Source: a virus
Taxonomy: Duplodnaviria > Caudoviricetes
Reading direction: 5' to 3' (one strand)
Virus record (IMG/VR): IMGVR_UViG_3300021962_000022
Length of the DNA stretch: 64,000 nucleotides
Shown here in pieces: positions 28,229 through 42,110 of the stretch. How positions within the stretch are numbered: the first letter of the stretch is position 1; each line of letters opens with the position of its first letter. Below the pieces are notes generated by a model. The model saw only the letters and a program-made list of their open reading frames with translations. It was not told the origin of the DNA and did no database searches. Both the position numbers and the translations under genes were made by a program.

Positions 28229-28417
28229 ATGGGATGCGGATGTAAAAAAAGAAATCAACCTGTTAGTAATCCAACAGTAAACATTCAATTAACTGAGGGT
28301 AGTTCTTCAACTTCACCTCAAGAAATTAGTATTATGGAGCAACAAATCGACCAAATCATTAAAAAGGTTGAGGAGATTAACAATCAAACAAACGAAGAAA
28401 ACACTGAAGGACAATAA
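28229..28417 (+). CDS. Small protein with Cys-rich N-terminus
   Basis: MGCGCKKR..., acidic helix. Confidence 0.7.
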   Translation: MGCGCKKRNQPVSNPTVNIQLTEGSSSTSPQEISIMEQQIDQIIKKVEEINNQTNEENTEGQ

Positions 28418-28420
28418 ATA

Positions 28421-28457
28421 ATATCGGACAGTCTTATAAATTGTCCGATATTTTTTG
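28421..28457 (+). terminator. 10-bp inverted repeat (terminator or operator)
   Basis: ATATCGGACA-N11-TGTCCGATAT followed by a T run. Confidence 0.6.
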
Positions 28458-28493
28458 TCTTTTATAATATATATAAATTTATATACTTATATT

Positions 28494-28694
28494 ATGCCTA
28501 AACAACAAACAAAACTGACAAGTGTTAATATTATAGACGATGTTTATAAGAGATTCAAGATTAAAACAATTGATGGGTCGATTAACTTACAAAAATTAGT
28601 AAACAGGTCTCTCGACCTTTATAACTCAAGAGAAGATTTTAGAAAACAAATAGATAATCACAATGGTTTGGCACCAAATGGTTCTAAATTTTAA
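28494..28694 (+). CDS. Ribbon-helix-helix-like DNA-binding protein
   Basis: KLTSVNI strand, helix DDVYKRFK, helix LQKLVNRSLDLY; ATG 28494. Confidence 0.6.
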   Translation: MPKQQTKLTSVNIIDDVYKRFKIKTIDGSINLQKLVNRSLDLYNSREDFRKQIDNHNGLAPNGSKF

Positions 28695-28723
28695 TTTGTG
28701 ATTACTTTTTCTTATATTTTGGT

Positions 28724-29074
28724 ATGCACTTATCTAAATTCTTACTTTTAAGAGGTAGTGATTATTTTTTAACGAACACTGTCGAAGTTAGACATGGTAT
28801 TCGTAGAATTAATGCTCAATGGTCTCCTGAATTAGCTCAGGATATTGAAGAGTATCACGGTATCAATGTGGAAGAAGAATTAGTAAGATTATTATCAGAA
28901 GAACTTGCAAGGGAAATCGATTCACAAATTATTAATACATTAAGACAGGGAGTAACAATTGCTCAGGACTTAGTTCCGATACAACCAATGAACGAACCTG
29001 TTGGACATCTTTTTTGTTTCGATTATTCCTACAACAATTACACATTCAAAAATTTCAAATTATTAAGAGGATGA
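28724..29074 (+). CDS. Miniature, order-reversed T4 gp23-type major-capsid-protein derivative
   Basis: RRINAQWSPELAQDIEEYHGINVEEELVRLLSEELAREIDSQII followed by IAQDLVPIQPMNEPVGHLF. Confidence 0.8.
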   Translation: MHLSKFLLLRGSDYFLTNTVEVRHGIRRINAQWSPELAQDIEEYHGINVEEELVRLLSEELAREIDSQIINTLRQGVTIAQDLVPIQPMNEPVGHLFCFDYSYNNYTFKNFKLLRG

Positions 29075-30531
29075 TAACAATAGGTTACAGCACAAGAGAA
29101 TCAAATCCCAAGTTTCAAGAATACTTAAAGAAAACTTGTGGTCACCCAAAAGTTCAGGTTATTGAAAAGGTGAACAATGGTGAAAAAAGTTTGTCACAAA
29201 CATACAATGAAATAATAAATGAATCAGAACATGACATTGTAGTTTTTTGTCACGATGACATTTATTTTGAAACCAGTTCTTGGGGTCGAAAATTAATGAA
29301 ACACTTTGAAGAAAGTGAGTATGGTATTTTAGGTGTTGCTGGTACAACCAACATTCATGAAAGTGGTAGATGGTGGACAGACAATACCAAAATGGTTGGT
29401 ATTGTTAACCACGAGAACGAAGGTAAAAAATGGGAATCTAGATATGCGAACGGTATACCAAATTCAATTCATCAAGTTTGTTTGGTCGATGGTTTGTTTA
29501 TTGCAATCTATAAGAATAGAATTAAACACACTTTCAATGAATCGGTACCCGGATTCCACTTCTACGATATGACTTTCTGTACTGAAAATCATTTAAGTGG
29601 TGTTCAGATTGGTGTGATATATAATATCAGATTAACCCATAAGTCTATTGGGATGACTAATGAATCTTGGGAGAAGAATAGGGAAGAATATATTGAGAGA
29701 TTCAAGAATGAATTACCTATATCCATAACACCGAAGATTAATTACGATGTGATTAAACCAAAACAAGTTAAGGAGAAATATAATCTGATTGTTCAAACAT
29801 CTAACAACAGTGAGAAACTCGTAAACTTTTTTGAGAGAATTAAAGAATTACCAGTTTACGATAATCTATTAATCTCATTGATTTCAACCGATAGTAACAT
29901 TGAGGATGTAAGAAAGTATGAATCTGAAAATGTTTTAATTTATGAAGGGTTTTTTGAAACATTAAATAAAAACCTATCTGTATTAAAGTGGGATGACTCG
30001 TTCATGAATTCTAAATCGGATTTACTTTTCTTTTCAACTGACGCGGTAACCATTCTCAATGACGTTTTTTCAAGTATGTATGGTATCTTCAAAAATGAAA
30101 GAAGTAGTTTTGGATGTGCATTCCCATCAGTTTTGGAATCTGATGGAACCATCTTCTCAAATGGTTTGGATATCATCCAAAATAAAGAAGAACAGTTTAA
30201 TTTAATCTTTAAAAATAAGTCATCATATTTCAACATACTTCACGGACATTTTCCAATTAATTTTGGCAGTATCAGTGATTTTTTCGCAACAACATCATCA
30301 AATTTAAAGATGATAGATTGGTTTGATATTAATTTAGAAACATCAATCTATAATTTAGATTTTGCTTTGAAATCATTCCTTAAAAAACGTAAAGTTTATG
30401 TTGATACGAATAGTGTCGTTATGATTGACATGGCGTCTCAATTTGAAAAGATAGATGGTGAATTAAAACAAGTTTTAGGTCAATACATGAACGCGCCTGA
30501 AATAAGAAAAAATGTGAAACAAATAAGATGA
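29071..30531 (+). CDS. Two-domain GT-A glycosyltransferase
   Basis: SLSQTYN, FCHDDIYF, LVDGLFIAI, FHFYD; ATG overlaps TGA of the upstream gene. Confidence 0.85.
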   Translation: MITIGYSTRESNPKFQEYLKKTCGHPKVQVIEKVNNGEKSLSQTYNEIINESEHDIVVFCHDDIYFETSSWGRKLMKHFEESEYGILGVAGTTNIHESGRWWTDNTKMVGIVNHENEGKKWESRYANGIPNSIHQVCLVDGLFIAIYKNRIKHTFNESVPGFHFYDMTFCTENHLSGVQIGVIYNIRLTHKSIGMTNESWEKNREEYIERFKNELPISITPKINYDVIKPKQVKEKYNLIVQTSNNSEKLVNFFERIKELPVYDNLLISLISTDSNIEDVRKYESENVLIYEGFFETLNKNLSVLKWDDSFMNSKSDLLFFSTDAVTILNDVFSSMYGIFKNERSSFGCAFPSVLESDGTIFSNGLDIIQNKEEQFNLIFKNKSSYFNILHGHFPINFGSISDFFATTSSNLKMIDWFDINLETSIYNLDFALKSFLKKRKVYVDTNSVVMIDMASQFEKIDGELKQVLGQYMNAPEIRKNVKQIR

Positions 30532-31307
30532 TAAAAATAATATCAGGATTTACAGAAAAAGGTGGCTCGACCACTTTTTTTATAAACTTAACTAATTTTC
30601 TAAACGAAAACGGTATTGACTGCACATTTTATGGTAATCAGAATTACCATATGGATAAATGTAAATCAGGTAATATCGATAAGGATTTAAAGTACGAACC
30701 CGATGATGTAATCATTACTCATTTCCTACAACTACAAGAAAGACCACCGGTAAAAAAAGTGATTTTATCTTGTCATGAGAAGTGGTGGTTTCCCGTTGGG
30801 AAAATAAAACAGTATTGGGATGTCTGTGTTTTTTTACATGATGAACACAGAAAATATCATTCAGATTATCGAGGTGATTATGTAATCATACCGAATATCA
30901 AAGAGAGTTTATTGAACTCCGATAAAGAATCTGTAAAAAACATTGCGGGTATAATTGGAACAATCGAAGATAGAAAACAAACACATGTGTCAATACAAAG
31001 AGCACTGAAAGACAGGTGTGAAAAAATTTACTTATTCGGTCATATCGGTGACCAAGGTTACTTTGACAGGTTTGTAAAGCCATTAATGAATCCAAGAGTG
31101 ATTCACTATGGTCACACAAATAATAAACAAGAGATGTACGATATGATTGGTAAAGTTTATCATTCATCTAAAGGTGAGGTTGCATGTTTGGTTAAAGATG
31201 AATGTTACCTAACCGGTACTGAATTTTATGGAAATGAAGAAACTATGAATGAGGTTTCTAAATTAAATAACGATGAGATATTAACACTTTGGAAAAATAT
31301 ATTTTAA
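30528..31307 (+). CDS. GT-B (GT4-like) glycosyltransferase
   Basis: GGST, GIIGTIEDRKQTH, VYHSSKGE. Confidence 0.7.
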   Translation: MIKIISGFTEKGGSTTFFINLTNFLNENGIDCTFYGNQNYHMDKCKSGNIDKDLKYEPDDVIITHFLQLQERPPVKKVILSCHEKWWFPVGKIKQYWDVCVFLHDEHRKYHSDYRGDYVIIPNIKESLLNSDKESVKNIAGIIGTIEDRKQTHVSIQRALKDRCEKIYLFGHIGDQGYFDRFVKPLMNPRVIHYGHTNNKQEMYDMIGKVYHSSKGEVACLVKDECYLTGTEFYGNEETMNEVSKLNNDEILTLWKNIF

Positions 31308-32030
31308 ATGAAAATACACGCACATATATTAGCTTGGAATGAGGAAAGAATACTTCCATTTACATTAGATTATTACAGCACCATTTGTGAGAAAATATTC
31401 ATCTACGATAATATGTCAACAGACTCGTCAGATGAGATTTATAAAAAGTACCCAAAAGTAGAAGTCACTAAATGGGACAGTGGTAATGAAATAAATGAGA
31501 TTAATTACGTCAATATAAAATCCGAAGAATATAAAAAACGAAGCAGAGGTCAAGGTGTTGACTGGGTTATTGTTTGTGACTGTGATGAATTTATTTATCA
31601 TGAAAATCTATTGGATAAATTAAACGAGTACAAACAATTAGGTATAACCGTACCGAGAATTGATGGTCACGATATGGTGAGCACGGAATTTCCAAAATAT
31701 GACGGGGAATTGATTACAACTAAAATAAAAACCGGTTCTAAAACATATGAACCTATGTGTAAAAACATAATATTCCATCCTGATTTGGATATCAAATACG
31801 GAATTGGTGGTCACAGTTTTAATTCCGTAGATGGAAAATTCTCAGATGAGAGAGAAATAAAACTTTTACATTATAAATTTTTAGGTAAGGAGTATGTAAA
31901 AAACATTTATATCTCGAGAGCTAAGAGATTGTCTTCTTTCAACAAGCAACATAAATTTGGTGAACATTATTTCAATCTACCTTTCAATTATATGGATACC
32001 ATGTTAAAAGAAAACTACCAAGTAATATGA
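31308..32030 (+). CDS. GT2-like glycosyltransferase
   Basis: WNEERILPFTLDYY, YDNMSTD, WVIVCDCDEF, LLHYK. Confidence 0.85.
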   Translation: MKIHAHILAWNEERILPFTLDYYSTICEKIFIYDNMSTDSSDEIYKKYPKVEVTKWDSGNEINEINYVNIKSEEYKKRSRGQGVDWVIVCDCDEFIYHENLLDKLNEYKQLGITVPRIDGHDMVSTEFPKYDGELITTKIKTGSKTYEPMCKNIIFHPDLDIKYGIGGHSFNSVDGKFSDEREIKLLHYKFLGKEYVKNIYISRAKRLSSFNKQHKFGEHYFNLPFNYMDTMLKENYQVI

Positions 32031-32848
32031 AAAAAATTTTAATTTCTGATTTTACAATAAAGGAAGTGCCACACGGTGGTTCTGAATGGGTAAACCAAGT
32101 TTTAATTGATAAGTTTAATCTTGATTTTCAATACTCAAATCAAGTCACTTCATTTGATTATAATAATCTATACATCATATCAAATATTTCATTGATGAAT
32201 CCAAATTTGGTAAGTCAAATACCTAATTTGAATTATATTATAATTGAAAACGATTACAAGATTTGTCCGAGTCGTCATCCATGGAGATATCCTGATAATA
32301 TTATTCCGAATGAAGACAGAATTAATTATTCAATTTATAAGAATGCAAAGGCGGTATTCGTTCAAACAACAGACCACATGAATGTGTATTTGAAAAATGA
32401 TGTGGTCGCCAATTTTATAAATTTAAATAGTTCAATATGGTCTGATAATGACTTAGAACTTTTAAGAGAATTGAATAAAAATAATTCAGTAAAGAATGAT
32501 AAATACTCAGTTTACTACACCAATAATTGGATTAAAAATACACAGGGTAGTTTAAAATATTGTTCTGAAAATAAATTACCAGTTTACATTTTAAAAGAAT
32601 CAAAAGATAGAGTTGAGTTTTTAACTAACCTTTCAAAATGTAAGGGTATTGTGTTTTTTCCAATTGCAAGAGAAACGTTTTGTAGGTTAGTTGTGGAATC
32701 TAAATGTTTAGGTTTAGATGTAATCACAACACAAAATTATGGTGCTAGTTTAGAAGATTGGTTCCATCAATTTTCAGGTGAAGAACTTATAAATTTCTTA
32801 GAATCTAACACCTCTAAGAACTTAGATATTATTTCAAATTATTTATGA
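32027..32848 (+). CDS. GT-B (GT4-like) glycosyltransferase
   Basis: PHGGSE, FFPIARETFCRLVVESKCLG. Confidence 0.75.
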   Translation: MKKILISDFTIKEVPHGGSEWVNQVLIDKFNLDFQYSNQVTSFDYNNLYIISNISLMNPNLVSQIPNLNYIIIENDYKICPSRHPWRYPDNIIPNEDRINYSIYKNAKAVFVQTTDHMNVYLKNDVVANFINLNSSIWSDNDLELLRELNKNNSVKNDKYSVYYTNNWIKNTQGSLKYCSENKLPVYILKESKDRVEFLTNLSKCKGIVFFPIARETFCRLVVESKCLGLDVITTQNYGASLEDWFHQFSGEELINFLESNTSKNLDIISNYL

Positions 32849-33837
32849 TACTTTTCTGTTACGGGACTAGACCCGAATATATAAAAATTAAAAAATTAAT
32901 TGAATCATGTGAAGGTGTTATACCGTATAAAGTATTGTACGTAACCCAACACAAAGACATAGTATTGGGTGATTTCGATTACAAATTAGTCATTGATGAC
33001 CTTTGTGATAATAGGTTAAACAGTATAATGGCGTCAGTCTTTTTAAACTTTAAAGAAGAATTTTTAAAAGATGTGACCCACATACTTGTTCAAGGGGATA
33101 CGGCAACCGCATTGTCACTTTCTTTAATTGGTTTACATTACAAAAAAGAAGTCATTCATTTAGAAGCTGGTCTTAGGACATATGATTACAATCATCCTTA
33201 TCCCGAAGAAATGTATCGACAACTAATAAGTCGAGTGTCAAATTATAACTTGTGTCCAACAGAAAGTAACAAACTTAATTTGGAAAATGAGAAAGTACAA
33301 GGACAAAATTTTGTAGTCGGTAACACCGTTTTAGATAATTTAGATAGAGACAATATTTCTTACGAGGATAAAGTTTTAATTACTTTACACAGACGAGAGA
33401 ATCATGAACAAATGTCCGAATGGTTTAATGAAATCAATCAACTCGCAATAGAGAATCCACAATTAGTTTTTATATTACCGATACACCCAAATCCAAATGT
33501 CCTAAAACACAAACACATACTATCACACGTTAATGTTGTTGACCCGATGAACCATGTTGATTTCATAAAGGAATTCAAATCTTCTAAAATTTTGATATCA
33601 GACAGTGGTGGGGTTCAAGAGGAAGCTGCGTTTTTAAATAAGAAAGTAATTGTCTGTCGAGAAAAAACTGAAAGACCTGAGTCAGTTGGTAAAACATCTT
33701 TTATTTGTAGAAAACCCATTGACTTAAAGGGTATTTTTTACGATATTATTAACGATTTTGACACACAGTATGAATGTCCTTATGGTGACGGTAATTCCTG
33801 TGATAAAATCGTAGAAATATTTAAAAAAATCATATGA
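32845..33837 (+). CDS. wecB: UDP-N-acetylglucosamine 2-epimerase
   Basis: GTRPEYIK, VQGDT, HLEAGLRT, PYPEE, HRREN, SDSGGVQEE, R..TERPE, YGDG. Confidence 0.95.
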   Translation: MILFCYGTRPEYIKIKKLIESCEGVIPYKVLYVTQHKDIVLGDFDYKLVIDDLCDNRLNSIMASVFLNFKEEFLKDVTHILVQGDTATALSLSLIGLHYKKEVIHLEAGLRTYDYNHPYPEEMYRQLISRVSNYNLCPTESNKLNLENEKVQGQNFVVGNTVLDNLDRDNISYEDKVLITLHRRENHEQMSEWFNEINQLAIENPQLVFILPIHPNPNVLKHKHILSHVNVVDPMNHVDFIKEFKSSKILISDSGGVQEEAAFLNKKVIVCREKTERPESVGKTSFICRKPIDLKGIFYDIINDFDTQYECPYGDGNSCDKIVEIFKKII

Positions 33838-34562
33838 GTATAACAGTAATATTAAATGGTTATAAAAGACCTCACGTTCTTGCAAAACAATTAGAAAGTA
33901 TTAGAAATCAAAGTGTTCAACCTGAGTCAATTTTATTTTGGCAAAACTCAGGTGCCGAATTTGATTCTAATTTAACTAAGGACTTAATTCACGCGTCATC
34001 TAATCACAACTTTGGTGTTTGGGCTAGATTTGCATACGCTTTAAACGCAACAACAGAATACATTTGTGTATTTGATGATGATACCATTCCCGGTCCATTA
34101 TGGTTAGAAAATTGTTTGAATACCATGAAAATTCAAGAGGGATTATTGGGAACAATTGGTGTTAAATTTCACACAAAAAACACATATTGGCCAGCAACAA
34201 GAATTGGTTGGGATGGTCCAAATGAACAGATAGAACAAGTGGACATCGTTGGTCATTCTTGGTTTTTTAAAAGAGAATGGTTATCTATTTTTTGGAGGGA
34301 GTTACCCGAAATCAATCAAAGTAAATTGGTTGGTGAGGACATGCACTTTTCTTATACCCTACAGAAATACGCCAACATAGGTACATTCGTCCCTCCACAT
34401 CCAAAAAATAATATGGATATGTGGGGAAGCATTCCTGAACATGCTTGGAAACACGGAACCGATTCTAATGCAATTTCAGTTCACAATTCAAATATGAATT
34501 TAATGAGTGAAGTATACCGTGGTTATATCGATAAAGGTTTTAAAACCATTTTAAATCGTTAA
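33834..34562 (+). CDS. GT2-like glycosyltransferase
   Basis: NFGVWARF, CVFDDDTIPG, GEDMHFS. Confidence 0.82.
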   Translation: MSITVILNGYKRPHVLAKQLESIRNQSVQPESILFWQNSGAEFDSNLTKDLIHASSNHNFGVWARFAYALNATTEYICVFDDDTIPGPLWLENCLNTMKIQEGLLGTIGVKFHTKNTYWPATRIGWDGPNEQIEQVDIVGHSWFFKREWLSIFWRELPEINQSKLVGEDMHFSYTLQKYANIGTFVPPHPKNNMDMWGSIPEHAWKHGTDSNAISVHNSNMNLMSEVYRGYIDKGFKTILNR

Positions 34563-34567
34563 TTCAT

Positions 34568-35164
34568 ATGATTAATAAAAACGAAATAACGATTATTATA
34601 CAGGGACCATCAGTAAATGTTGGGGAATTAAGGCAACGATGGGATGGTTTTAATGTAATATGGTCAACGTGGGTTGGGGAAGAGGCAAAATACAATCAAG
34701 ATGACATTGTAATTTTCAATAATATACCATTCGATAAAGGTATCCAAAACATTGCGCTACAAAAAGAGTCAACATTAAATGGAATAAGAAAAGCAAAAGA
34801 ATTAGGTTTTAGTTGGGTTTTAAAATGGAGAAGTGATATGTTACCAAATGACTCTGAAAGTTTAATTAATTGTTTCAAAAAAGATTCAATTAACTTCTTG
34901 GCGTGGCATAATGGAGGAAAATATTTTGTTGATTACTTTGTCGGTGGTAATATCGATGACGTTTATAAAATATGGGACATTCCTCAGATATGGTCGTCCC
35001 ATTCAGAAAAAATAACAACTGATAATATTTTTTCATTAGGGTATGATAATTTTAACTTTATTGGTGATAAATTAAACACCAATAATGAAATATATTGGTC
35101 CAAATATAAAATCAATCTATCCACATATAAAGATGAGAAATGTTATACTATGGAGGTAAAATAA
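34568..35164 (+). CDS. WavE-like polysaccharide synthesis protein
   Basis: IIIQGP, IWSTW, NIALQ..STLNGI, LKWRSD. Confidence 0.7.
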   Translation: MINKNEITIIIQGPSVNVGELRQRWDGFNVIWSTWVGEEAKYNQDDIVIFNNIPFDKGIQNIALQKESTLNGIRKAKELGFSWVLKWRSDMLPNDSESLINCFKKDSINFLAWHNGGKYFVDYFVGGNIDDVYKIWDIPQIWSSHSEKITTDNIFSLGYDNFNFIGDKLNTNNEIYWSKYKINLSTYKDEKCYTMEVK

Positions 35165-35171
35165 TAATTAA

Positions 35172-35903
35172 ATGTACGATAATTCAAAATTTATTAATAA
35201 CGCTTTTACCGAAGACGAATATAATCTTGGGGTGTTTGTCGATTTAAATGGTAAGTGTCCTTTATGGACAAAAAAATTGATATCTAATATTAAAGATAAA
35301 ATTGATTTCAATTCCATAAACACAATATTGGATATTGGTTCAAGAGATGGGTGTCAAAGTTTAGAATTAAATCGGTGGTTTCCACATGCAAAGATTTACG
35401 CATTCGAACCCGTACCAAATAACTATGAGTTTACCGTAAAAAATGTTCAAGGTGTTGATAATATCAGAGCACTTCCATACGCAATAAATTCATTTCATGG
35501 TAAGACTAAATTTTATGAGGTATACAATGGGAACGTAGGTGCTAGTTCATTGTTAAAAACAACGAACCACTGGCGTTCATCACAATGGGCACAAAAAGAA
35601 ATTGAAGTTGAATGTATAGTCCTATCTGATTGGTTAAAAGAAAATGATGTTAACCAAGTGGATTTAATATGGATGGATGTACAAGGTGCTGAAAAAATTG
35701 TCATAGATAGTTTGGGTGATTACTTAAATGAAGTTAAAGTAATCGCAACTGAAGTCGGATTACAAGAGTTATATGTTAATTCAACTACTAAAAACGAACT
35801 TGATAAATTATTAGATGGGTTTATCGCTTTAGATGAATCACCCGAATCGTCAATGACCGAAATGGACATTATCTATATCAACAAGAAAAATGGAACAATT
35901 TAA
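35172..35903 (+). CDS. FkbM-family methyltransferase
   Basis: LDIGSRDG, YAFEP, WMDVQGAE. Confidence 0.9.
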   Translation: MYDNSKFINNAFTEDEYNLGVFVDLNGKCPLWTKKLISNIKDKIDFNSINTILDIGSRDGCQSLELNRWFPHAKIYAFEPVPNNYEFTVKNVQGVDNIRALPYAINSFHGKTKFYEVYNGNVGASSLLKTTNHWRSSQWAQKEIEVECIVLSDWLKENDVNQVDLIWMDVQGAEKIVIDSLGDYLNEVKVIATEVGLQELYVNSTTKNELDKLLDGFIALDESPESSMTEMDIIYINKKNGTI

Positions 35904-36609
35904 AAGTGATTTTGTAAGGTTCACCGAAAAAATAAAAAATGGTGAGAATTTTGCATACGCAAGATATGCGGATGGTGAAGTATTGTTAATGAAAGGTAAT
36001 GAGGTGGGTCAAAATACACAAGCTTTTAAAATCGATAATTGGAGTTCACCAAATCAATTAACTACCGTAGGTAATGAATTACTTGAGAGTTTATCACATA
36101 CCGAATCTAATTATTACTATGCAATTTCATCCGTATCTGACAATATTTCAGACTATAGATTTTTGACGGATAGAATTAAATCAAAAAAAGAGAATATAAC
36201 ATTCGCCAACCTATGGATAAATTCAAATTACCAGCAGATGAAAGATTTTTACATGGGGTTGGATAAGGAGTGTTTCGTTATATGTAATCATCGGGCTAAT
36301 ATCAATAATTTTCCTTTTAAAATAAAAGAATTTTTTCCATTTCCTGATAATTGTGTTGAGTTTTGGGAATCCTCAGGGTCCGACTATATGACACAAATTA
36401 ATCAAAAAATACAACAATTAAATAATGAAACTTTCTTTATATCAGCTGGACCAATTTCTGAAATAATAATACATAAACTGTACTCTTTGAACCCAAACAA
36501 TCAATATATTGATGTTGGTTCCTCAATGGATGAATTTGTCCACGGTAAAAAGACAAGACCATATATGGAACCAAATTCATTTTATTCTAAACAAATATCA
36601 GTATTCTAA
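35890..36609 (+). CDS. GT-D-fold-like (DUF1792-like) protein
   Basis: YARYADGE, ISAGP, IDVGS. Confidence 0.65.
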   Translation: MEQFKSDFVRFTEKIKNGENFAYARYADGEVLLMKGNEVGQNTQAFKIDNWSSPNQLTTVGNELLESLSHTESNYYYAISSVSDNISDYRFLTDRIKSKKENITFANLWINSNYQQMKDFYMGLDKECFVICNHRANINNFPFKIKEFFPFPDNCVEFWESSGSDYMTQINQKIQQLNNETFFISAGPISEIIIHKLYSLNPNNQYIDVGSSMDEFVHGKKTRPYMEPNSFYSKQISVF

Positions 36610-37286
36610 TGATTAATATTGTATACACAAATAGTAAATGTCAAGATGTTTTTAATATTTTTAAATCACAGCACGACACATACTCAAAATTACCACTTTT
36701 TGTAATATCCGATAATGGTGGGGATTTTACTTATAGAAACGAAGACCCATATTACAAACATTGGTTAGATGCATTAAAATTGGTGAATGATGATTTTTTC
36801 ATTTACAACCAAGAGGATTTCATTCTTTATGATTCAGTAAATCATGATATTTTAAATAGATTAGAAAACTTTTTAATAGAAAATCCTGAATATTCATTTG
36901 TTAGATTAATTAAAAGTGGTCAAAATTTATCAAGAGAAGAATTGGTTGAAGACATATACCCGATTGGTGACGATTCTTTTCCACTTTATTCGATGCAGGC
37001 AACAATTTGGAATAAAAATAAATTTATCGAACTGTATGAAAATACTAAACAAGAAAAGTGGTTTGAGTCTCAATCATATGAAGATGCGTGTAAAAAATTA
37101 AATATAAGAGGCGTTTATTATTACAATGGTGAACCAAAAAGAGGTGGTCATCATGACTCATCAATTTATCCTTATATCGCAACCGCGGTTGTAAAAGGTA
37201 AATGGAATTTAAGTGAGTATAAAAATGAATTATTACCTCTACTTAACGAACATAATATAGTTATAGAAAATAGAGGTATATTTTAA
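36609..37286 (+). CDS. Putative glycosyltransferase
   Basis: YNQEDF, YSMQATIWNK, AVVKGKW; cluster context. Confidence 0.55.
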   Translation: MINIVYTNSKCQDVFNIFKSQHDTYSKLPLFVISDNGGDFTYRNEDPYYKHWLDALKLVNDDFFIYNQEDFILYDSVNHDILNRLENFLIENPEYSFVRLIKSGQNLSREELVEDIYPIGDDSFPLYSMQATIWNKNKFIELYENTKQEKWFESQSYEDACKKLNIRGVYYYNGEPKRGGHHDSSIYPYIATAVVKGKWNLSEYKNELLPLLNEHNIVIENRGIF

Positions 37287-37287
37287 T

Positions 37288-37899
37288 ATGTTACTTGATT
37301 TAATTAGTCTATCAAAAAAATACAACATGAATATTAGTGGCATTATTCACATAGGTGCCCATTTCGGTGAAGAACATTCAACTTATAAGAGTTTAGGTGT
37401 AAACAATATTGTTTATTTTGAACCGGTTAAAAAAACATTTGATGTTTTAAATGAAAGAGTAACGGATGCAAAATTATATAATTACGCTTTAGGTAATGAA
37501 AATAAAATGATTGAAATGTATATTGAAGATAACGATACATATGGGTGCTCTTCAATACTTCAACCAAGTTCAAATTATGCAAACATCGCTTTTAGTCCAA
37601 ATGAATTAGTTGAAATGAAACGATTAGATGATTTTAATTTTAATGGTTTTAATCTATTAAATATAGATGTCCAAGGTTACGAATATGAAGTTTTAAAAGG
37701 TGCTGAAAAAACATTAGAAAATGTAGATTTTATTTTATGTGAAATAAATCGAGATACCCCAAATAAACAACTAGATTATATCGGCTCAAAAACGATAGAT
37801 AAAATAATAGAACTATTAACACCTTACGGTTTCAAATTGAGTGAAGAAAATTGGGCTGGAATATCGTGGGGTGATGGTTTTTTTGTAAAACAAAAATGA
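37288..37899 (+). CDS. FkbM-family methyltransferase
   Basis: IHIGAHFGEE, YFEP, LNIDVQGYEYEVLKGA, WGDGFF. Confidence 0.9.
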   Translation: MLLDLISLSKKYNMNISGIIHIGAHFGEEHSTYKSLGVNNIVYFEPVKKTFDVLNERVTDAKLYNYALGNENKMIEMYIEDNDTYGCSSILQPSSNYANIAFSPNELVEMKRLDDFNFNGFNLLNIDVQGYEYEVLKGAEKTLENVDFILCEINRDTPNKQLDYIGSKTIDKIIELLTPYGFKLSEENWAGISWGDGFFVKQK

Positions 37900-38573
37900 T
37901 TGTAGGTAAAGGGTTAATATCATCCGGGTTTCAGTCATCAAAAAATGACTATACCAATTACATCATATTTGCATCAGGAGTTTCGAATTCAAAAGAAACG
38001 AATGATAGTGAATATAATCGTGAAAAAGAACTGATATTAAAAACCATAAATGAAAACAAACAATTAAAAATAATTTATTTTAGTAGTGTTTTAGTTGAAA
38101 CAACCAAAAATAAGTACTATCAAAACAAATTAGATATTGAAAATCTAATCAAAACTAATTCAGATAACTATATTATTTTTAGAATTCCTCAGGTTATTGG
38201 ATACAATGGAAATCCTAAAAATTTGTTCAATTTTATAAAAAATTCTATAGTAAACGAAACCGAAATAACAATCGATAAAAACATAGAAAGGTCTCTATTA
38301 GATATTGATTATTTGGTAGATATTGTTGATTACTGTAAAGATAAAGTATCTTGCGAGATACTGACAATTTCAGGTGTAAAAAAAATAAAAGTATTTACTT
38401 TATGTAATCTAATTGGTAAAATTTTAAATAAAAAACCTATTTTAAAAATAGTCGATGATGTCGAATATAAAAATTGGTTTACCAAAAACTCTAAGATTAT
38501 TAATCAATCAATAATCAATATCAATAAACTAACTTATTATGAAACTCTTCTAAAAAAATATATTTCTCAATGA
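37896..38573 (+). CDS. Short NAD-dependent epimerase/dehydratase-like protein
   Basis: IVGKGLIS, IFASGVSNS, YFSS, Y...K, IFRIPQVIG. Confidence 0.75.
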   Translation: MIVGKGLISSGFQSSKNDYTNYIIFASGVSNSKETNDSEYNREKELILKTINENKQLKIIYFSSVLVETTKNKYYQNKLDIENLIKTNSDNYIIFRIPQVIGYNGNPKNLFNFIKNSIVNETEITIDKNIERSLLDIDYLVDIVDYCKDKVSCEILTISGVKKIKVFTLCNLIGKILNKKPILKIVDDVEYKNWFTKNSKIINQSIININKLTYYETLLKKYISQ

Positions 38574-39337
38574 AAGTTATAACTTTAACATTCGCCTATG
38601 ATATAAGCAAATTATTTGAAATTGGTAGATTTTGGGCCAAAGATGTTTATATCGATAAAGATTTTATATCTGATTATTCTGCCGCATCTTATGCTACTTT
38701 TTTACATACAAATCCGGATTTACAACTTCATTTATATACCGATGACATTGATTTAATTAGAGAAAAATTAAACCAATACAATGTAAATTTAAAAAATGTT
38801 GTTTATCATGATTATTCTGAAAAATTAAAATCATATGAAGGTAAATTAAAATATAGTTTTGATATTTTACATGATTTTATTATTGAGCAGAGAAGTAATA
38901 GTGAATACACGGTTAAAATTGATTGTGATTTATCATTTCGTAACAAGATACCAATGATGGATAATACAAGTAAAGATATTTTAGTTTGGAAATATGAAAG
39001 AATGTTATTTAACGGTGACCCTAGAATGGGTGAAATTAAATCATCAACGTTAAGTGTTGGTAACATTAATTATAAAATATTTAATGTTGGCTTATTGGGG
39101 ATACCACCAACATTTGAAATCGATGAATTGGATGGTGTGTATCGAAAAATGTCCGACGTTAATATTATGGATGTTTCAGATATAAAAGTAAATTCTTGGC
39201 ATTGTGCTGAACAAACATCTAAAAATTGGATTTTTCATAAATACAATTACAATGTCATTGAATCATATAACTTTGTTAATCATCATTTTGAAACCAAAAA
39301 AAAATGTATCGATGACGCCAAATATTTATTAAAATGA
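38570..39337 (+). CDS. Putative GT-A glycosyltransferase
   Basis: LYTDD, KIDCD, FNVGLLG, AEQ. Confidence 0.55.
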   Translation: MKVITLTFAYDISKLFEIGRFWAKDVYIDKDFISDYSAASYATFLHTNPDLQLHLYTDDIDLIREKLNQYNVNLKNVVYHDYSEKLKSYEGKLKYSFDILHDFIIEQRSNSEYTVKIDCDLSFRNKIPMMDNTSKDILVWKYERMLFNGDPRMGEIKSSTLSVGNINYKIFNVGLLGIPPTFEIDELDGVYRKMSDVNIMDVSDIKVNSWHCAEQTSKNWIFHKYNYNVIESYNFVNHHFETKKKCIDDAKYLLK

Positions 39338-40152
39338 TTACAATAATAACTACAGGTAGAGATGATGATTACGGACATGGATTTTTAGATAGACTGTATT
39401 CGTCAATAAAAAATAATATAGAAATACTGCACAGTTACAGTATCGAATACGAATATATTATTTGTGAATGGAATCCGGTAAAAGAACCCCTTTTGTACCA
39501 CGAAAAATTTAAAGAATTATTTGAAAAATATAATTTAAGAGAAGTAATAATTACAAATAGTGTTGTCGAAGAAGAACGGTTAAATCATAATATTTTTTAT
39601 GAATATTTTGCAAAAAACGTCGGTGTTAGAAACGCCAAATATGAAAATATATTAATAATTAATTCAGATATTGTTATTCCTTCAGAATCCTTTTCAATTA
39701 TCATCGATAACATTAAAAATGGTTTAGAAAAAGATAAATTTTATAGATTAGAGTTCAGAGAACAAATAGATAATGATTTTAATTTTATTAAGATAGAATC
39801 TGTTTATCACCCGTCTAATCCTGATTCAGTAATATGTGGATATTGTTCTGGTGATTTTTTACTAACAAATAAAAATAGCTTTGTTGAATTTGGGATGGGA
39901 TATGACGAAACAAATTTTGCTCATAGAACCATTTCACAAACAGGTATGGATGGTGAAATATTATGGAATATGTACAATAATGGTATGAGAATAAAATTAA
40001 TTCCGACTAAGTATATGCACATAAATCACGGTAAACCTAACCCATATGATAATTACTATAATGATAAAGGATATATAAATAAGAGTAATTGGGGGTTTAT
40101 TGATTATGAACATGATGAAGTTTCAAATAAATTAATGATTATAAAAAAATGA
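39334..40152 (+). CDS. GT2-like glycosyltransferase
   Basis: TTGRDDDYG, KNVGVRNA, NSDIV, GDF, HINH. Confidence 0.75.
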   Translation: MITIITTGRDDDYGHGFLDRLYSSIKNNIEILHSYSIEYEYIICEWNPVKEPLLYHEKFKELFEKYNLREVIITNSVVEEERLNHNIFYEYFAKNVGVRNAKYENILIINSDIVIPSESFSIIIDNIKNGLEKDKFYRLEFREQIDNDFNFIKIESVYHPSNPDSVICGYCSGDFLLTNKNSFVEFGMGYDETNFAHRTISQTGMDGEILWNMYNNGMRIKLIPTKYMHINHGKPNPYDNYYNDKGYINKSNWGFIDYEHDEVSNKLMIIKK

Positions 40153-41078
40153 AAAAATTTATAGTAACAACAACAATTAATAAACCTACCGTAGCGACCT
40201 TAAAATTTGCGGAAATATCAGACAGAGATAATTGGACTTTTGTAATTGTAGGTGACACAAAGACCCCACATGATGAGTATGAGAAATTAGTTTCATCACA
40301 TAAAAATGTTGTTTATTTATCACCAAATCAACAAGAGAAGTTGTATCCCGAAATCAGTAAATTAATTGGTTGGGGTACAATACAAAGGAGAAACATTGGG
40401 TTTATTTATTCATACCACAACGGCGCAGACATTATGTCGACCATAGATGATGACAACATACCATATGATAATTGGGGTCAAAATAATGTGGGTAAGGAAA
40501 TTGAAGTTGACCTTTATGAACCCCAATTAAATGTATTTGACCCATTGTCAATTACCCGAGATAACTATCTGTGGCATCGAGGTTACCCAATCGAATACTT
40601 ACAAAAAAGATTTCAAGTTGAGTACAAGGGTAAAATAAAAAGAAAAGTATTGGTTCAAGCGGATTTGTGGGATGGTGACCCTGATATTGATGCATTAGCA
40701 AGACTAACATATAAACCAATCGTTAAATATTCTGACGTGGTTCACCCATATTGTTCGAATAAAATATCACCATTTAATTCTCAAAATACGTTTCTTGATA
40801 GGTCTGTGATTCCCGTTTATTCGGTTTTACCATTTATTGGTAGAATGGATGATATTTGGGGGGCTTACATACTCCAACACTATTTTCCCAATTCTGTGAT
40901 TTATTCACCCGCCAGTGTTTATCAAGACAGAAATTCTCAGGATTTAATTACCAACTTAGAAAAAGAAATCATTGGGTATAGAGATACTTTAAACCTGATT
41001 AATAATTTAGAGAATTTTGAAAAAATAATACCAAAAGAGACACTTAATTTTTATAATTTATACAAAAAACAATTTTAA
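40149..41078 (+). CDS. STELLO/DUF288 (RGP/GT75-related) protein
   Basis: IVTTTIN, VGDTKTP, RRNIGF, IDDDN, DGDPDIDA, FNSQNT, RMDDIW. Confidence 0.75.
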   Translation: MKKFIVTTTINKPTVATLKFAEISDRDNWTFVIVGDTKTPHDEYEKLVSSHKNVVYLSPNQQEKLYPEISKLIGWGTIQRRNIGFIYSYHNGADIMSTIDDDNIPYDNWGQNNVGKEIEVDLYEPQLNVFDPLSITRDNYLWHRGYPIEYLQKRFQVEYKGKIKRKVLVQADLWDGDPDIDALARLTYKPIVKYSDVVHPYCSNKISPFNSQNTFLDRSVIPVYSVLPFIGRMDDIWGAYILQHYFPNSVIYSPASVYQDRNSQDLITNLEKEIIGYRDTLNLINNLENFEKIIPKETLNFYNLYKKQF

Positions 41079-42080
41079 ATGAAAAAAGTATTAGTACTAG
41101 GAGGTGGAGGTTTTATTGGTGGTCACCTTGCAAAAAGATTAAAGAATGAAGGAAACTATGTTAGAGTAGTTGACATAAAAAGACACGAATACTTTGACGA
41201 GAAGGACTTTTGTGATGAATTCATAGTTGGAGACCTAAGAGACCCTAAAGTTGTCTCAGAATCAATTGATGAGGGTATGGATGAAGTTTATCAACTTGCT
41301 GCTGACATGGGTGGTGCTGGGTATATTTTTACCGGTGATAATGACGCGAATGTGATGCACAACTCATCGTTAATTAATTTAAATGTTGTCCATGAGTGTG
41401 CTAAGAAAAATGTAAAGAAAGTTTTTTACTCATCATCGGCATGTATGTACCCCGAACACAACCAACTTGACCCTGATAACCCAAATTGTGAAGAATCTTC
41501 GGCTTATCCCGCGAATCCCGATTCGGAATATGGATGGGAAAAATTGTTCTCTGAAAGGTTGTTTTTAGCGTTTAATAGGAACTATGGATTGGATGTCCGT
41601 ATTGGTAGATTCCACAATATCTTTGGTCCTTATGGTACTTGGAAAGGTGGTAAGGAGAAAGCACCAGCAGCAATGTGTAGGAAAGTTTCCGAAATGTTGG
41701 ATGGTGGTGAAATTGAAGTGTGGGGTGACGGTCAACAAACTCGTTCATTTTTATATGTTGACGAATGTGTTGAAGCGGTGCTAAGACTAATGAATCAAAA
41801 TGAATTTTTAGGACCTGTTAATATTGGTTCGGAAGAAAAGATTACCATAAATGATTTAGCACAAATGGCAATAGATATCTCAGGAAAAGAGATTTATATA
41901 AGAAACATTGGTGGGGAAGAATTTAAGGAAAAGTATGGTTACAAATGTCCTGTCGGTGTACGTGGACGAAACTCAGATAACAAACTTTATTTAGAAAAAA
42001 TAGGATGGGTTGTTAATGAACCATTATACAATGGTATGGTAAAAACCTACGAATGGATTCAAACAATGGTTGAGAAATAA
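41079..42080 (+). CDS. GDP-mannose 3,5-epimerase-like SDR
   Basis: GGGGFIG, LAADMGGAGYI, SSSACMYP, AYPANPDSEYGWEK, EKAPAAMCRK, GVRGRNSDN. Confidence 0.88.
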   Translation: MKKVLVLGGGGFIGGHLAKRLKNEGNYVRVVDIKRHEYFDEKDFCDEFIVGDLRDPKVVSESIDEGMDEVYQLAADMGGAGYIFTGDNDANVMHNSSLINLNVVHECAKKNVKKVFYSSSACMYPEHNQLDPDNPNCEESSAYPANPDSEYGWEKLFSERLFLAFNRNYGLDVRIGRFHNIFGPYGTWKGGKEKAPAAMCRKVSEMLDGGEIEVWGDGQQTRSFLYVDECVEAVLRLMNQNEFLGPVNIGSEEKITINDLAQMAIDISGKEIYIRNIGGEEFKEKYGYKCPVGVRGRNSDNKLYLEKIGWVVNEPLYNGMVKTYEWIQTMVEK

Positions 42081-42110
42081 AAAAGGGGGTTATTGACCCC
42101 CTTCTTCTTT
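42081..42110. terminator. Convergent terminator
   Basis: AAGGGGGT-TATTG-ACCCCCTT between convergent genes. Confidence 0.7.

What the first reader, a model, noticed from the sequence alone, without database searches (positions are those of the whole stretch)
28494..42080. Candidate capsid-glycosylation system: RHH regulator + mini-capsid protein coupled to a 13-kb glycan operon
Seen: the TGA of the mini-gp23 gene overlaps the ATG of the first glycosyltransferase (ATGA, 29071-29074). Sixteen same-strand genes then follow with overlaps or gaps of about 0-7 nt up to a convergent terminator at 42081. The block is inverted relative to the flanking genes. Inference: a capsid-fold fragment at the head of a glycan operon suggests the glycan's acceptor is the virion (glycan shielding), with the mini-protein as scaffold, primer or targeting adaptor. 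This is the best candidate here for an undescribed system.
Basis: partly seen in the sequence, partly recalled or inferred. Interest (0 to 1): 0.82.

Follow-up and report, generated by a model that had tools for sequence, protein, structure and literature searches.

The report
Capsid-mimic mini-protein in phage sugar island
A large freshwater T4-like phage carries a 13-kb sugar-building operon whose second gene is a 116-residue cut-down, rearranged copy of its own capsid protein; such capsid mimics recur in the otherwise ever-changing sugar islands of many related phages, which hints, without proving it, that the sugars go onto the virus shell.

Summary
One plus-strand unit runs from a promoter-like site and a 16-bp palindrome (28441-28485) through a 66-aa RHH-like gene, a 116-aa gp23 fragment and 16 tightly packed sugar genes to a hairpin terminator at 42083-42103. 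The fragment's stop overlaps the first glycosyltransferase's ATG (29071-29074).

The new result is comparative. Mini-gp23 belongs to a diverse family of 70-130-aa proteins built from the gp23 P-domain core. I found 23 sequence clusters, all inside RHH-headed glycan islands at the same site of related 290-330-kb phages. The enzyme genes of these islands share almost no homology between lineages.

The fragment is not essential. The window's sister lineage has the same operon without it, 23 of 80 surveyed islands lack it, and three more loci were too short to tell. It is also not always the first gene after the RHH-like gene. It evolves several-fold faster than its neighbours.

No island protein has a membrane segment, so the glycan is probably built on a soluble acceptor. 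The acceptor is unknown. Capsid targeting is my best reading (about 0.4). A capsid decoy or interference role is the main rival. Fold and complex predictions gave nothing usable. I found no publication describing this family.

The parts
28420..28452 (+). Hairpin terminator of the preceding 62-aa gene; marks the left border of the unit
   Evidence: 13-pair stem followed by a T run. The hairpin is conserved in relatives.
28441..28468 (+). Sigma-70-like promoter candidate (TTGTCC, 16 nt, TATAAT)
   Evidence: 10 of 12 consensus positions match. This is a consensus match only. The region as a whole has no more such sites than shuffled sequence.
28470..28485 (.). Perfect 16-bp AT palindrome 8 nt upstream of the RHH-like start; candidate operator
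   Evidence: One of 5 perfect 16-bp palindromes in the window, against 2.8 expected. Other lineages have palindromes of different sequence at the same place. Binding is inferred.
28494..28694 (+). 66-aa RHH-like protein, conserved head gene of the island
   Evidence: Heads the island in all full-length contexts read, at 43-98% identity; L008 keeps only its 3' end and L074 starts downstream of it. 272 confirmed stretches in IMG/VR. Pfam RHH_10 E 0.023, below cut-off. Atlas neighbours include RHH families at 0.92. dN/dS 0.02.
28724..29074 (+). Mini-gp23: a 116-aa permuted fragment of the major capsid protein. It contains a strand, the spine helix and the N-terminal conserved strand, and carries F-K/L-L-L-R-G motifs at both ends.
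   Evidence: Pfam Gp23 3e-20. Residues 11-76 align to residues 340-405 of a relative's true gp23, and residues 79-99 to residues 86-106. Family found. dN/dS 0.59.
29071..30531 (+). 486-aa glycosyltransferase: GT2 (Glyco_tranf_2_5) N-terminal half and an unassigned C-terminal half; translationally coupled to mini-gp23
   Evidence: Pfam 1e-27. ATGA overlap. More than 2900 homologues, most with no mini-gp23 nearby.
30528..31307 (+). 259-aa protein, no family assigned
   Evidence: No Pfam, PHROG or NCBIfam match. dN/dS 0.01 against L002.
31308..32030 (+). GT2 glycosyltransferase (Glyco_tranf_2_4)
   Evidence: Pfam 1.6e-14.
32027..32848 (+). 273-aa protein with a weak GT1-like signal
   Evidence: Pfam Glycos_transf_1 E 0.054, below cut-off.
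32845..33837 (+). Non-hydrolysing UDP-GlcNAc 2-epimerase (WecB type), which makes UDP-ManNAc
   Evidence: Pfam Epimerase_2 3.5e-58. TIGR00236 212.4 bits against a cut-off of 210.15.
33834..34562 (+). GT2 glycosyltransferase
   Evidence: Pfam Glycos_transf_2 1.2e-7.
34568..35164 (+). 198-aa protein with a weak WavE-like signal
   Evidence: Pfam WavE E 0.001, below cut-off.
35172..35903 (+). FkbM-type methyltransferase
   Evidence: Pfam Methyltransf_21 6e-17.
35890..36609 (+). 239-aa protein, unassigned
   Evidence: Only sub-threshold hits.
36609..37286 (+). 225-aa protein with a weak glycosyltransferase-like signal
   Evidence: NCBIfam TIGR04440 3e-5, below cut-off.
37288..37899 (+). Second FkbM-type methyltransferase; this allele is strongly diverged from that of the close relative L002
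   Evidence: Pfam 7e-20. dN 0.225 and dS 1.28 against L002.
37896..38573 (+). 225-aa protein with a weak RmlD-like (sugar reductase) signal
   Evidence: Pfam RmlD_sub_bind E 0.014, below cut-off.
38570..41078 (+). Three unassigned proteins (255, 272 and 309 aa); this is the lowest-GC part of the operon
   Evidence: No significant family. GC 0.248 at 38-40 kb.
41079..42080 (+). GDP-mannose 3,5-epimerase homologue, last gene of the operon
   Evidence: phmmer 1.3e-96 to PDB 2c59. Pfam Epimerase 8e-47.
42083..42103 (.). Hairpin terminator shared with the convergent glutaredoxin-like gene
   Evidence: 9-pair stem with 5 GC pairs, followed by a T run.

Best explanation
The block is the local version of a hypervariable glycan-building island that sits at one fixed site in a large clade of freshwater T4-like jumbo phages. 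The site lies between a DNA methyltransferase with two small genes on the left and a glutaredoxin gene on the right. The island is probably one operon. It starts with a small RHH-like protein that I infer represses its own promoter through the palindrome just upstream. It encodes only soluble enzymes: at least four recognisable glycosyltransferases and several weaker candidates, two FkbM methyltransferases, a UDP-GlcNAc 2-epimerase and a GDP-mannose 3,5-epimerase. This points to stepwise assembly of a methylated heteroglycan on an acceptor inside the cell. Mini-gp23 is a real, selected protein. It belongs to a fast-evolving family made from the conserved P-domain core of the major capsid protein. 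Apart from the RHH-like gene and, in one island layout, a second small protein (type B), this family is the only recurrent non-enzyme gene of these islands. My best reading is that it is the constant protein 'handle' of a variable glycan system. It would be a capsid-surface mimic made in step with the neighbouring transferase, and it would serve either as a surrogate or primer acceptor or as an adaptor that points the enzymes at gp23. The glycan would then end up on the capsid. Shown: the gene structure, the homology, the permutation, the family, the synteny, the selection and the absence of membrane proteins. Inferred: co-transcription, RHH function, the acceptor, and any binding of mini-gp23 to a transferase or to gp23.
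For: Gene structure and coupling.
Homology to two separated gp23 segments in reversed order.
Family: an exhaustive profile search returned about 35 small proteins (69-165 aa) that match the query end to end.
Context: every FKLLRG-type member whose context was read lies in a glycan island. These are the window and L002; L008 and L092; L068; L075; L070; L073; L074; the minimal 3-kb island of the complete genome G006 (L155); and 38 further IMG/VR loci. Together they form 23 clusters at 70% identity.
Island content: enzyme genes share almost no homology between lineages, whereas the RHH-like gene and mini-gp23 persist.
Selection: the ORF is intact at 33-55% identity, and dN/dS is 0.26-0.47 in six comparisons with dS of 0.5 or more.
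No membrane components: no 19-residue window reaches transmembrane-like hydrophobicity except one borderline value of 1.66, and there is no Pfam hit to an initiating transferase, flippase, polymerase or transporter.
Precedents: virus-encoded soluble GTs and methyltransferases build the capsid glycan of chlorovirus PBCV-1 (PMC9614988). Mycobacteriophage capsid and tail-tube proteins carry glycans, as cited in PMC12619734.
Against: The sister lineage (14 contigs, GT 84% identical) keeps the whole operon without mini-gp23, and its 92%-complete genome has none elsewhere. Of 80 RHH-headed loci, 23 lack a gp23-type gene and three more were too short downstream to judge. It cannot therefore be the sole acceptor or an obligatory adaptor.
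It evolves much faster than its neighbours: dN/dS is 0.59 against 0.01-0.19 for them, and the true gp23 is nearly invariant between G003 and G006. That is not what one expects of a partner of a static capsid protein.
A second subfamily of gp23-derived mini-proteins lies in a non-glycan context, next to TROVE-like, Mom-like and YAcAr genes.
The family has no conserved Ser, Thr, Tyr or Asn beyond residues inherited from gp23.
GT clusters in aquatic T4-like phages are usually read as host O-chain modification (PMC7029224).
That is an obvious alternative acceptor, and I did not test it.
Confidence: 0.4

Rival explanations
1. Mini-gp23 works independently of the sugars, as a capsid-protein mimic in a conflict. 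It could be a decoy for host immune sensors that recognise the conserved part of the major capsid protein. It could instead be a dominant-negative fragment that disturbs head assembly of co-infecting relatives. It sits in the island because the island is the genome's hot spot for fast-turnover conflict genes. The glycan itself modifies the host envelope or another acceptor, such as the giant Ser/Thr-rich protein.
For: Evolution is fast relative to neighbours, with dN/dS 0.26-0.6. The gene is dispensable in a sister lineage. A second gp23-derived subfamily lies in a non-glycan region with Mom-like DNA-modification genes. The second block of the fragment covers the most conserved stretch of gp23. 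This stretch lies within the first quarter of gp23, and in T4 that quarter contains the Gol peptide, which binds EF-Tu and triggers the Lit protease (PMC3014915; alignment; the exact Gol residue numbers are from my memory). Capsid-protein homologues used for interference exist, for example Ccm of SaPIbov5 (PMC8569155). Published work reads such GT clusters as host-surface modification.
Against: All 23 clusters of this mini-gp23 type are embedded in glycan operons, often overlapping both neighbours by 1-4 nt. The gene persists even in a minimal island with two GTs and one methyltransferase. Chance co-location would not predict such constant linkage through wholesale enzyme replacement. No defence system or competitor target is known for these uncultured phages. 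The islands lack the membrane-bound enzymes typical of phage O-antigen modification.
Confidence: 0.3
2. Mini-gp23 is itself the main glycan carrier. It would be a small glycoprotein that is either released or added to the head as a decoration. In other lineages the unrelated 'type B' small protein would do the same job.
For: Glycosyltransferase genes often sit beside the gene of their protein substrate (general knowledge, not tested here). Two unrelated small proteins in these islands share N- and C-terminal F-K-L-L-R-G-like motifs, as if both were recognised by the same machinery. AlphaFold confidence for the isolated protein is low, which would fit a protein that needs a partner.
Against: The sister lineage and the L134-L136 lineage keep full operons with neither small protein. 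No conserved acceptor residue is apparent. Low model confidence may simply reflect the shallow alignment.
Confidence: 0.15
3. The ORF is a non-functional remnant of a recombination event involving gene 23.
For: In the closest pair (window against L002) the 19 non-synonymous and 8 synonymous changes cannot be told apart from neutrality. The fragment is permuted and incomplete.
Against: Intact ORFs persist at 33-55% identity across 23 clusters, with conserved end motifs, gene overlaps and dN/dS near 0.3 at larger distances. An Atlas cluster of 118-aa Gp23-domain proteins has 483 members.
Confidence: 0.03

Closest known systems
Hypervariable glycosyltransferase / 'LPS' gene islands of aquatic T4-like myophages (pelagimyophages, cyanomyophages; PMC7029224)
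   Same: T4-like aquatic phages. Clusters of GTs and nucleotide-sugar enzymes that are non-syntenic between relatives at a conserved genomic site. Function never demonstrated.
   Different: Those islands lie in the tail-fibre 'host recognition cluster' and are read as host O-chain modification. Here the island lies among metabolic genes. It is headed by an RHH-like gene and carries capsid-derived mini-proteins, and that paper mentions neither feature.
Virion glycosylation in mycobacteriophages (Freeman et al. 2023, as cited in PMC12619734)
   Same: Phage-encoded glycosyltransferases. Capsid and tail-tube proteins as acceptors. The proposed role is shielding.
   Different: Those phages have two or three GT genes, with no capsid-mimic protein and no dedicated regulator reported. 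I could not read the paper itself, so the comparison rests on the citing text.
Chlorovirus PBCV-1 capsid glycosylation (A064R, A061L; PMC9614988)
   Same: Virus-encoded soluble GTs and sugar methyltransferases build a methylated glycan on the major capsid protein. Changes in the enzymes change the antigenic type.
   Different: A eukaryotic giant virus with a double-jelly-roll capsid protein, scattered genes and no capsid-derived helper protein.
Gol peptide of T4 gp23 (Gol-Lit exclusion; PMC3014915)
   Same: A short stretch from the most conserved, N-terminal quarter of gp23 has a biological activity of its own, outside the capsid. The second block of mini-gp23 is homologous to a stretch within the N-terminal quarter of gp23, the part that contains Gol.
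   Different: Gol is part of full-length gp23, not a separate gene. It triggers a host defence and has no link to sugars.
Ccm of SaPIbov5, a capsid-protein homologue that redirects helper-phage head assembly (PMC8569155)
   Same: A capsid-protein-derived gene used for something other than being the main shell subunit.
   Different: Ccm is a full HK97-fold protein encoded by a satellite. Mini-gp23 is a 70-130-aa permuted fragment encoded by the phage itself.

Membership tests
T4-type major capsid protein (Pfam PF07068 Gp23) | Sequence match above the curated threshold | tested here: met
   73.3 bits against a cut-off of 24.4. PHROG 138 at 5e-19.
T4-type major capsid protein (Pfam PF07068 Gp23) | Full-length, collinear HK97-type subunit (about 450-590 aa with N-arm, insertion, P and A domains) | tested here: not met
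   116 aa. Only profile positions 143-195 plus one N-terminal block are matched, and they are in reversed order. It is a homologous fragment, not a capsid subunit.
T4-type major capsid protein (Pfam PF07068 Gp23) | Located in the head-morphogenesis module beside the portal, protease and scaffold genes | tested here: not met
   In relatives the true gp23 lies more than 100 kb away from the island. Head-module context is seen only for true gp23 genes.
Ribbon-helix-helix DNA-binding proteins | Profile match above threshold | tested here: not met
   Best hit is PF23807 RHH_10 at 15.4 bits against a cut-off of 27. A PDB profile search gave no RHH. Atlas neighbours from RHH families appear at 0.92, which is a lead only.
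Ribbon-helix-helix DNA-binding proteins | Strand-helix-helix core of about 45 residues that dimerises | not tested
   The sequence pattern is compatible.
Ribbon-helix-helix DNA-binding proteins | Repeat or palindromic operator at its own promoter | tested here: inconclusive
   A perfect 16-bp palindrome lies 8 nt upstream, and palindromes occur at the same place in other lineages. Binding cannot be tested here.
Undecaprenyl-phosphate-dependent O-antigen or capsule gene cluster | Initiating phosphoglycosyl transferase plus a flippase/polymerase or ABC exporter (integral membrane proteins) | tested here: not met
   None of the 18 proteins has a clear hydrophobic segment, and there are no such Pfam families.
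Undecaprenyl-phosphate-dependent O-antigen or capsule gene cluster | Nucleotide-sugar enzymes with several glycosyltransferases in one operon | tested here: met
   WecB, GDP-mannose 3,5-epimerase and four clear GT2 proteins.
Phage virion glycosylation systems | Glycan covalently attached to capsid or tail proteins | not testable with these tools
   Needs virions. No cultured relative was found.
Hypervariable GT islands of aquatic T4-like myophages | GT-rich cluster at a conserved site with non-homologous content between related genomes | tested here: met
   Flanks are conserved and enzyme genes are mostly unrelated between lineages.
Hypervariable GT islands of aquatic T4-like myophages | Position inside the tail-fibre host-recognition cluster | tested here: not met
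   The flanks are thymidylate synthase, glutamine synthetase, a DNA methyltransferase and glutaredoxin.

The most novel reading that the evidence does not exclude
A family of permuted, P-domain-only capsid-protein mimics is the dedicated acceptor-mimic or adaptor of a cytoplasmic, serotype-like glycosylation system that coats T4-like capsids. Its shared end motifs (F-K-L-L-R-G) would be the docking handles for the enzymes. No viral or bacterial glycosylation pathway that I know of has such a component.
Probability: 0.25. Interest if true: 0.8.

Novelty: new variant of a known kind. Interest (0 to 1): 0.62.

Why it matters
Sugar-gene islands are among the most common unexplained features of aquatic T4-like phages. 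They are usually written off as host lipopolysaccharide modification. A capsid-derived protein that stays in these islands while every enzyme is swapped is the first sequence-level clue to what the sugars are for.

It also gives a small, easily expressed handle for experiments: is it glycosylated, and what does it bind? If the capsid is the target, these islands would be phage 'serotype' loci, comparable to bacterial O-antigen loci. That has consequences for grazing, adsorption to particles and recognition by host defences. If the decoy reading is right instead, the family would be a widespread mimic of a conserved capsid epitope.

Natural sister lineages with and without the gene offer a ready-made comparison.

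Tried and rejected
- **Cultured phages.** Megablast of 28400-33000 and tblastn of mini-gp23 against 50,697 phage records gave no match.
- **Pattern search in IMG/VR.** A peptide-pattern search with the single mini-gp23 sequence found nothing. The family only appeared through the exhaustive profile search and through RHH-anchored loci.
- **False 'small gp23' hits.** P0005-P0007 looked like small gp23 proteins. They are frameshifted pieces of true gp23 genes in 2.6-4x long-read assemblies, sitting in head modules. I excluded them.
- **Structure of mini-gp23.** AlphaFold2 with 5 and then 33 sequences gave mean pLDDT 47 and 57.5. Only the two helices were modelled with any confidence. The models were too poor for fold searches, so none was run.
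- **Complex prediction.** Mini-gp23 against the true gp23 of sister genome G003 returned 'no answer'. I count this neither for nor against binding.
- **Late-promoter test.** No T4-type TATAAATA motif lies upstream of the relative's gp23 or of most window genes. Promoter class could not be used to time the operon.
- **End motif as a genome-wide tag.** In the complete genome G006 only the mini-protein carries the motif at its N-terminus. G003 has two further small ORFs with it, which is too few to call a system.
- **Type B small protein as a virion fragment.** A profile search of G006 found no match, and there is no profile-profile similarity to mini-gp23 apart from the end motif.
- **RHH fold.** A PDB sequence-profile search gave no support.
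- **End motifs as DNA repeats.** The two copies in the window use different synonymous codons, so the conservation looks protein-level. However, the Arg-Gly codons at the C-terminus also form a purine-rich stretch just before the next start codon. An RNA-level contribution cannot be excluded.


Full report
**1. What is in the sequence**

The window is low-GC DNA (about 31%) of a T4-like phage. Most genes are on the minus strand, but between 28.2 and 42.1 kb both the coding strand and the GC and AT skew flip.

A 62-aa gene (28229-28417) ends in a strong hairpin terminator (28420-28452). A promoter-like site follows at 28441-28468, then a perfect 16-bp palindrome at 28470-28485. The palindrome is one of five in the window, against 2.8 expected in shuffles.

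Next come three coupled genes:
- a 66-aa ORF (28494-28694);
- the 116-aa ORF (28724-29074);
- a 486-aa glycosyltransferase whose ATG overlaps the previous stop, as ATGA at 29071-29074.

Fifteen more genes follow with spacings of -14 to +7 nt, ending at 42080. A hairpin terminator at 42083-42103 is shared with a convergent glutaredoxin-like gene.

**2. Enzymes of the operon**

Clear assignments:
- GT2-type transferases at 29071, 31308 and 33834, plus a further GT2-like N-terminal domain;
- a WecB-type UDP-GlcNAc 2-epimerase at 32845;
- two FkbM methyltransferases at 35172 and 37288;
- a GDP-mannose 3,5-epimerase at 41079, with E 1e-96 to the plant enzyme structures.

Several other proteins give only sub-threshold transferase or reductase signals. 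None of the 18 proteins has a convincing membrane segment. There is no initiating phosphoglycosyl transferase, flippase, polymerase or exporter. This looks like stepwise assembly of a methylated heteroglycan on something soluble. Peripheral enzymes acting on a host lipid carrier cannot be excluded.

**3. The mini-gp23**

The ORF matches Pfam Gp23 at 3e-20. I compared it with the true 587-aa gp23 of a sister genome (G003). Residues 11-76 align with gp23 residues 340-405, which form a strand, a short helix and the long spine helix, at 47% identity. Residues 79-99 align with gp23 residues 86-106, the conserved strand near the N-terminus, at 52% identity. The order is reversed relative to gp23, so the permutation noted by the first stage is real.

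The C-terminal motif (F-K-N-F-K-L-L-R-G) resembles the conserved gp23 stretch near residue 550. A similar motif is repeated at the N-terminus.

**4. It is a family, and it lives in sugar islands**

A word-based search found only close copies and one 54%-identical protein. The exhaustive profile search found about 35 small proteins that match from end to end.

Their contexts are consistent: thymidylate synthase, glutamine synthetase, DUF192, a DNA methyltransferase, a small 55-62-aa gene, a 65/66-aa RHH-like gene, then a run of plus-strand sugar genes ending at a glutaredoxin gene.

There are two layouts:
- **Layout (i):** RHH, mini-gp23, then a GT2_5 transferase. Seen in the window, L008/L092, L068, L075 and the minimal 3-kb island of the complete 310-kb genome G006.
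- **Layout (ii):** RHH, a GT4 protein, a 415-aa GT-B-like protein, a 77-97-aa 'type B' protein, a gp23-type mini or 'micro' protein, then a GT2-like protein. Seen in L070, L073, L074 and many IMG/VR contigs.

I anchored a survey on the RHH-like gene, which gave 272 confirmed stretches; 80 were fetched. The 80 loci break down as follows:

| Content of the island | Loci |
|---|---|
| gp23-type small gene inside the island | 39 |
| gp23-type gene elsewhere on the contig | 1 |
| only the type B protein | 20 |
| window's sister lineage, with neither | 14 |
| another lineage (L134-L136), with neither | 3 |
| too short downstream to judge | 3 |

Together with the other contexts, the island-borne minis form 23 clusters at 70% identity. 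Apart from RHH and the minis, island proteins share almost no homology between lineages.

**5. Dispensable and fast-evolving**

The sister lineage (GT 84% and RHH 94% identical) joins RHH to the GT through a 49-nt spacer. Its 92%-complete genome has no mini-gp23 elsewhere. More distant layout-(i) relatives have the gene, so this is most simply a loss.

Against the close relative L002, mini-gp23 has dN/dS 0.59 (19 non-synonymous and 8 synonymous changes), while its neighbours have 0.01-0.19. Over larger distances the family shows dN/dS of 0.26-0.47. That is purifying but relaxed selection.

The true gp23 is almost unchanged between G003 and G006. L068 and L075 share 81% in the adjacent transferase and 94% in RHH, but only 50% in the mini.

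**6. Things that complicate a simple capsid-adaptor story**

- 'Micro' forms of 69-104 aa keep only the N-terminal motif, a strand and the spine helix.
- A second subfamily with a different C-terminus lies in a different conserved neighbourhood with no sugar genes. That neighbourhood holds a TROVE-like gene, Mom-like genes and YAcAr.
- The unrelated type B protein shares the N-terminal F-K-L-L-R-G and a C-terminal F-K-I/L-F-A-R-E motif. Within-protein similarity of the two end motifs exceeds that of shuffled pairings (p about 0.005, not corrected for relatedness). I cannot explain these motifs.

**7. Predictions that gave nothing**

AlphaFold2 models of mini-gp23 were of low confidence. The single complex job, against a sister phage's gp23, returned no answer.

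**8. Reading**

Constant linkage through wholesale enzyme replacement, tight gene overlaps and retention in a minimal island all argue that the mini-protein is part of the glycan system. Its capsid origin makes the capsid the most economical guess for the target. Virus-encoded capsid glycosylation has precedents in chloroviruses (PMC9614988) and mycobacteriophages (cited in PMC12619734).

On the other side stand dispensability, rapid evolution against an invariant gp23, and the non-glycan subfamily. These keep alive the rival that these are capsid mimics used in conflicts with host sensors or with competing phages. The activity of the T4 Gol peptide (PMC3014915) and the capsid homologue Ccm (PMC8569155) show that capsid-derived sequences can have such roles.

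I put the capsid-linked glycosylation reading at about 0.4, the independent decoy or interference reading at about 0.3, 'mini-protein as the main carrier' at about 0.15, and a dead remnant at about 0.03.

**9. Novelty**

GT-rich hypervariable islands in aquatic T4-like phages are known (PMC7029224). A recently named group of 200-307-kb freshwater phages with glutamine synthetase and core glycosyltransferases (PMC12619734) may include this clade; I did not test that. I found no description of capsid-derived mini-proteins or of an RHH-headed island.

Earlier first-stage notes of this scan had already flagged the permuted mini-protein and the operon on this same DNA. I did not find it flagged on other DNA.

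Noticed in passing
window 28229-28417: A 62-aa protein that starts M-G-C-G-C-K-K and has a Ser/Thr-rich middle. It has its own terminator and precedes the RHH-like gene in most lineages (41-97% identity). Function unknown. It could belong to the island's control region.
   Followed up: partly
L111:11803-12045, L112:12548-12781, L090:11800-12081, L132:11816-12106: 'Type B' small proteins (77-97 aa) sit in the same island slot as, or just before, the gp23-type minis. They are unrelated in sequence but share the N-terminal F-K-L-L-R-G and a C-terminal F-K-I/L-F-A-R-E motif. No family match.
   Followed up: partly
L071:5075-5521 and L178:6867-7289: A second subfamily of gp23-derived mini-proteins (about 135-165 aa, with a C-terminal D-D-G-S-W ... 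K-x-H-x-F-I tail). It lies in a different conserved neighbourhood between a DUF2828/TROVE-like gene and a YAcAr gene, in one case with Mom-like genes. No sugar genes are nearby.
   Followed up: partly
window 35172-38573 compared with L002:12314-15796: Divergence between the window and its close relative is strongly mosaic along the operon. dS runs from 0 (gene 35890) to 1.28 (methyltransferase 37288), and GC drops to 0.248 at 38-40 kb. This suggests cassette-wise recombination inside the island.
   Followed up: partly
L157:1746-1907 and L157:2851-3204 (genome G003): Two small ORFs (53 and 117 aa) in a run of small genes start with D-F-K-L-L-R-G-Y and N-F-T-L-L-R-G-I. This is the mini-gp23 N-terminal motif, in a genome that lacks mini-gp23.
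   Followed up: no
L153:539-2837: The thymidylate synthase gene appears split into two ORFs by a 316-aa ORF with a GIY-YIG-like N-terminus. This looks like a homing-endonuclease insertion.
   Followed up: no
L006:9010-10844, L007:8911-10746, L010:6304-7088: In 2.6-4x long-read metagenome assemblies, true gp23 genes are broken into two or three called ORFs. These show up in protein databases as 'small Gp23-domain proteins' and can be mistaken for mini-gp23.
   Followed up: yes
window 25175-26305 (minus strand) and the syntenic genes in L002-L005, L068, L075: A phage-encoded glutamine synthetase, a 4HBT thioesterase, DUF2452 and an acid-phosphatase-like gene form a conserved block just upstream of the island (Pfam labels).
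   Followed up: no
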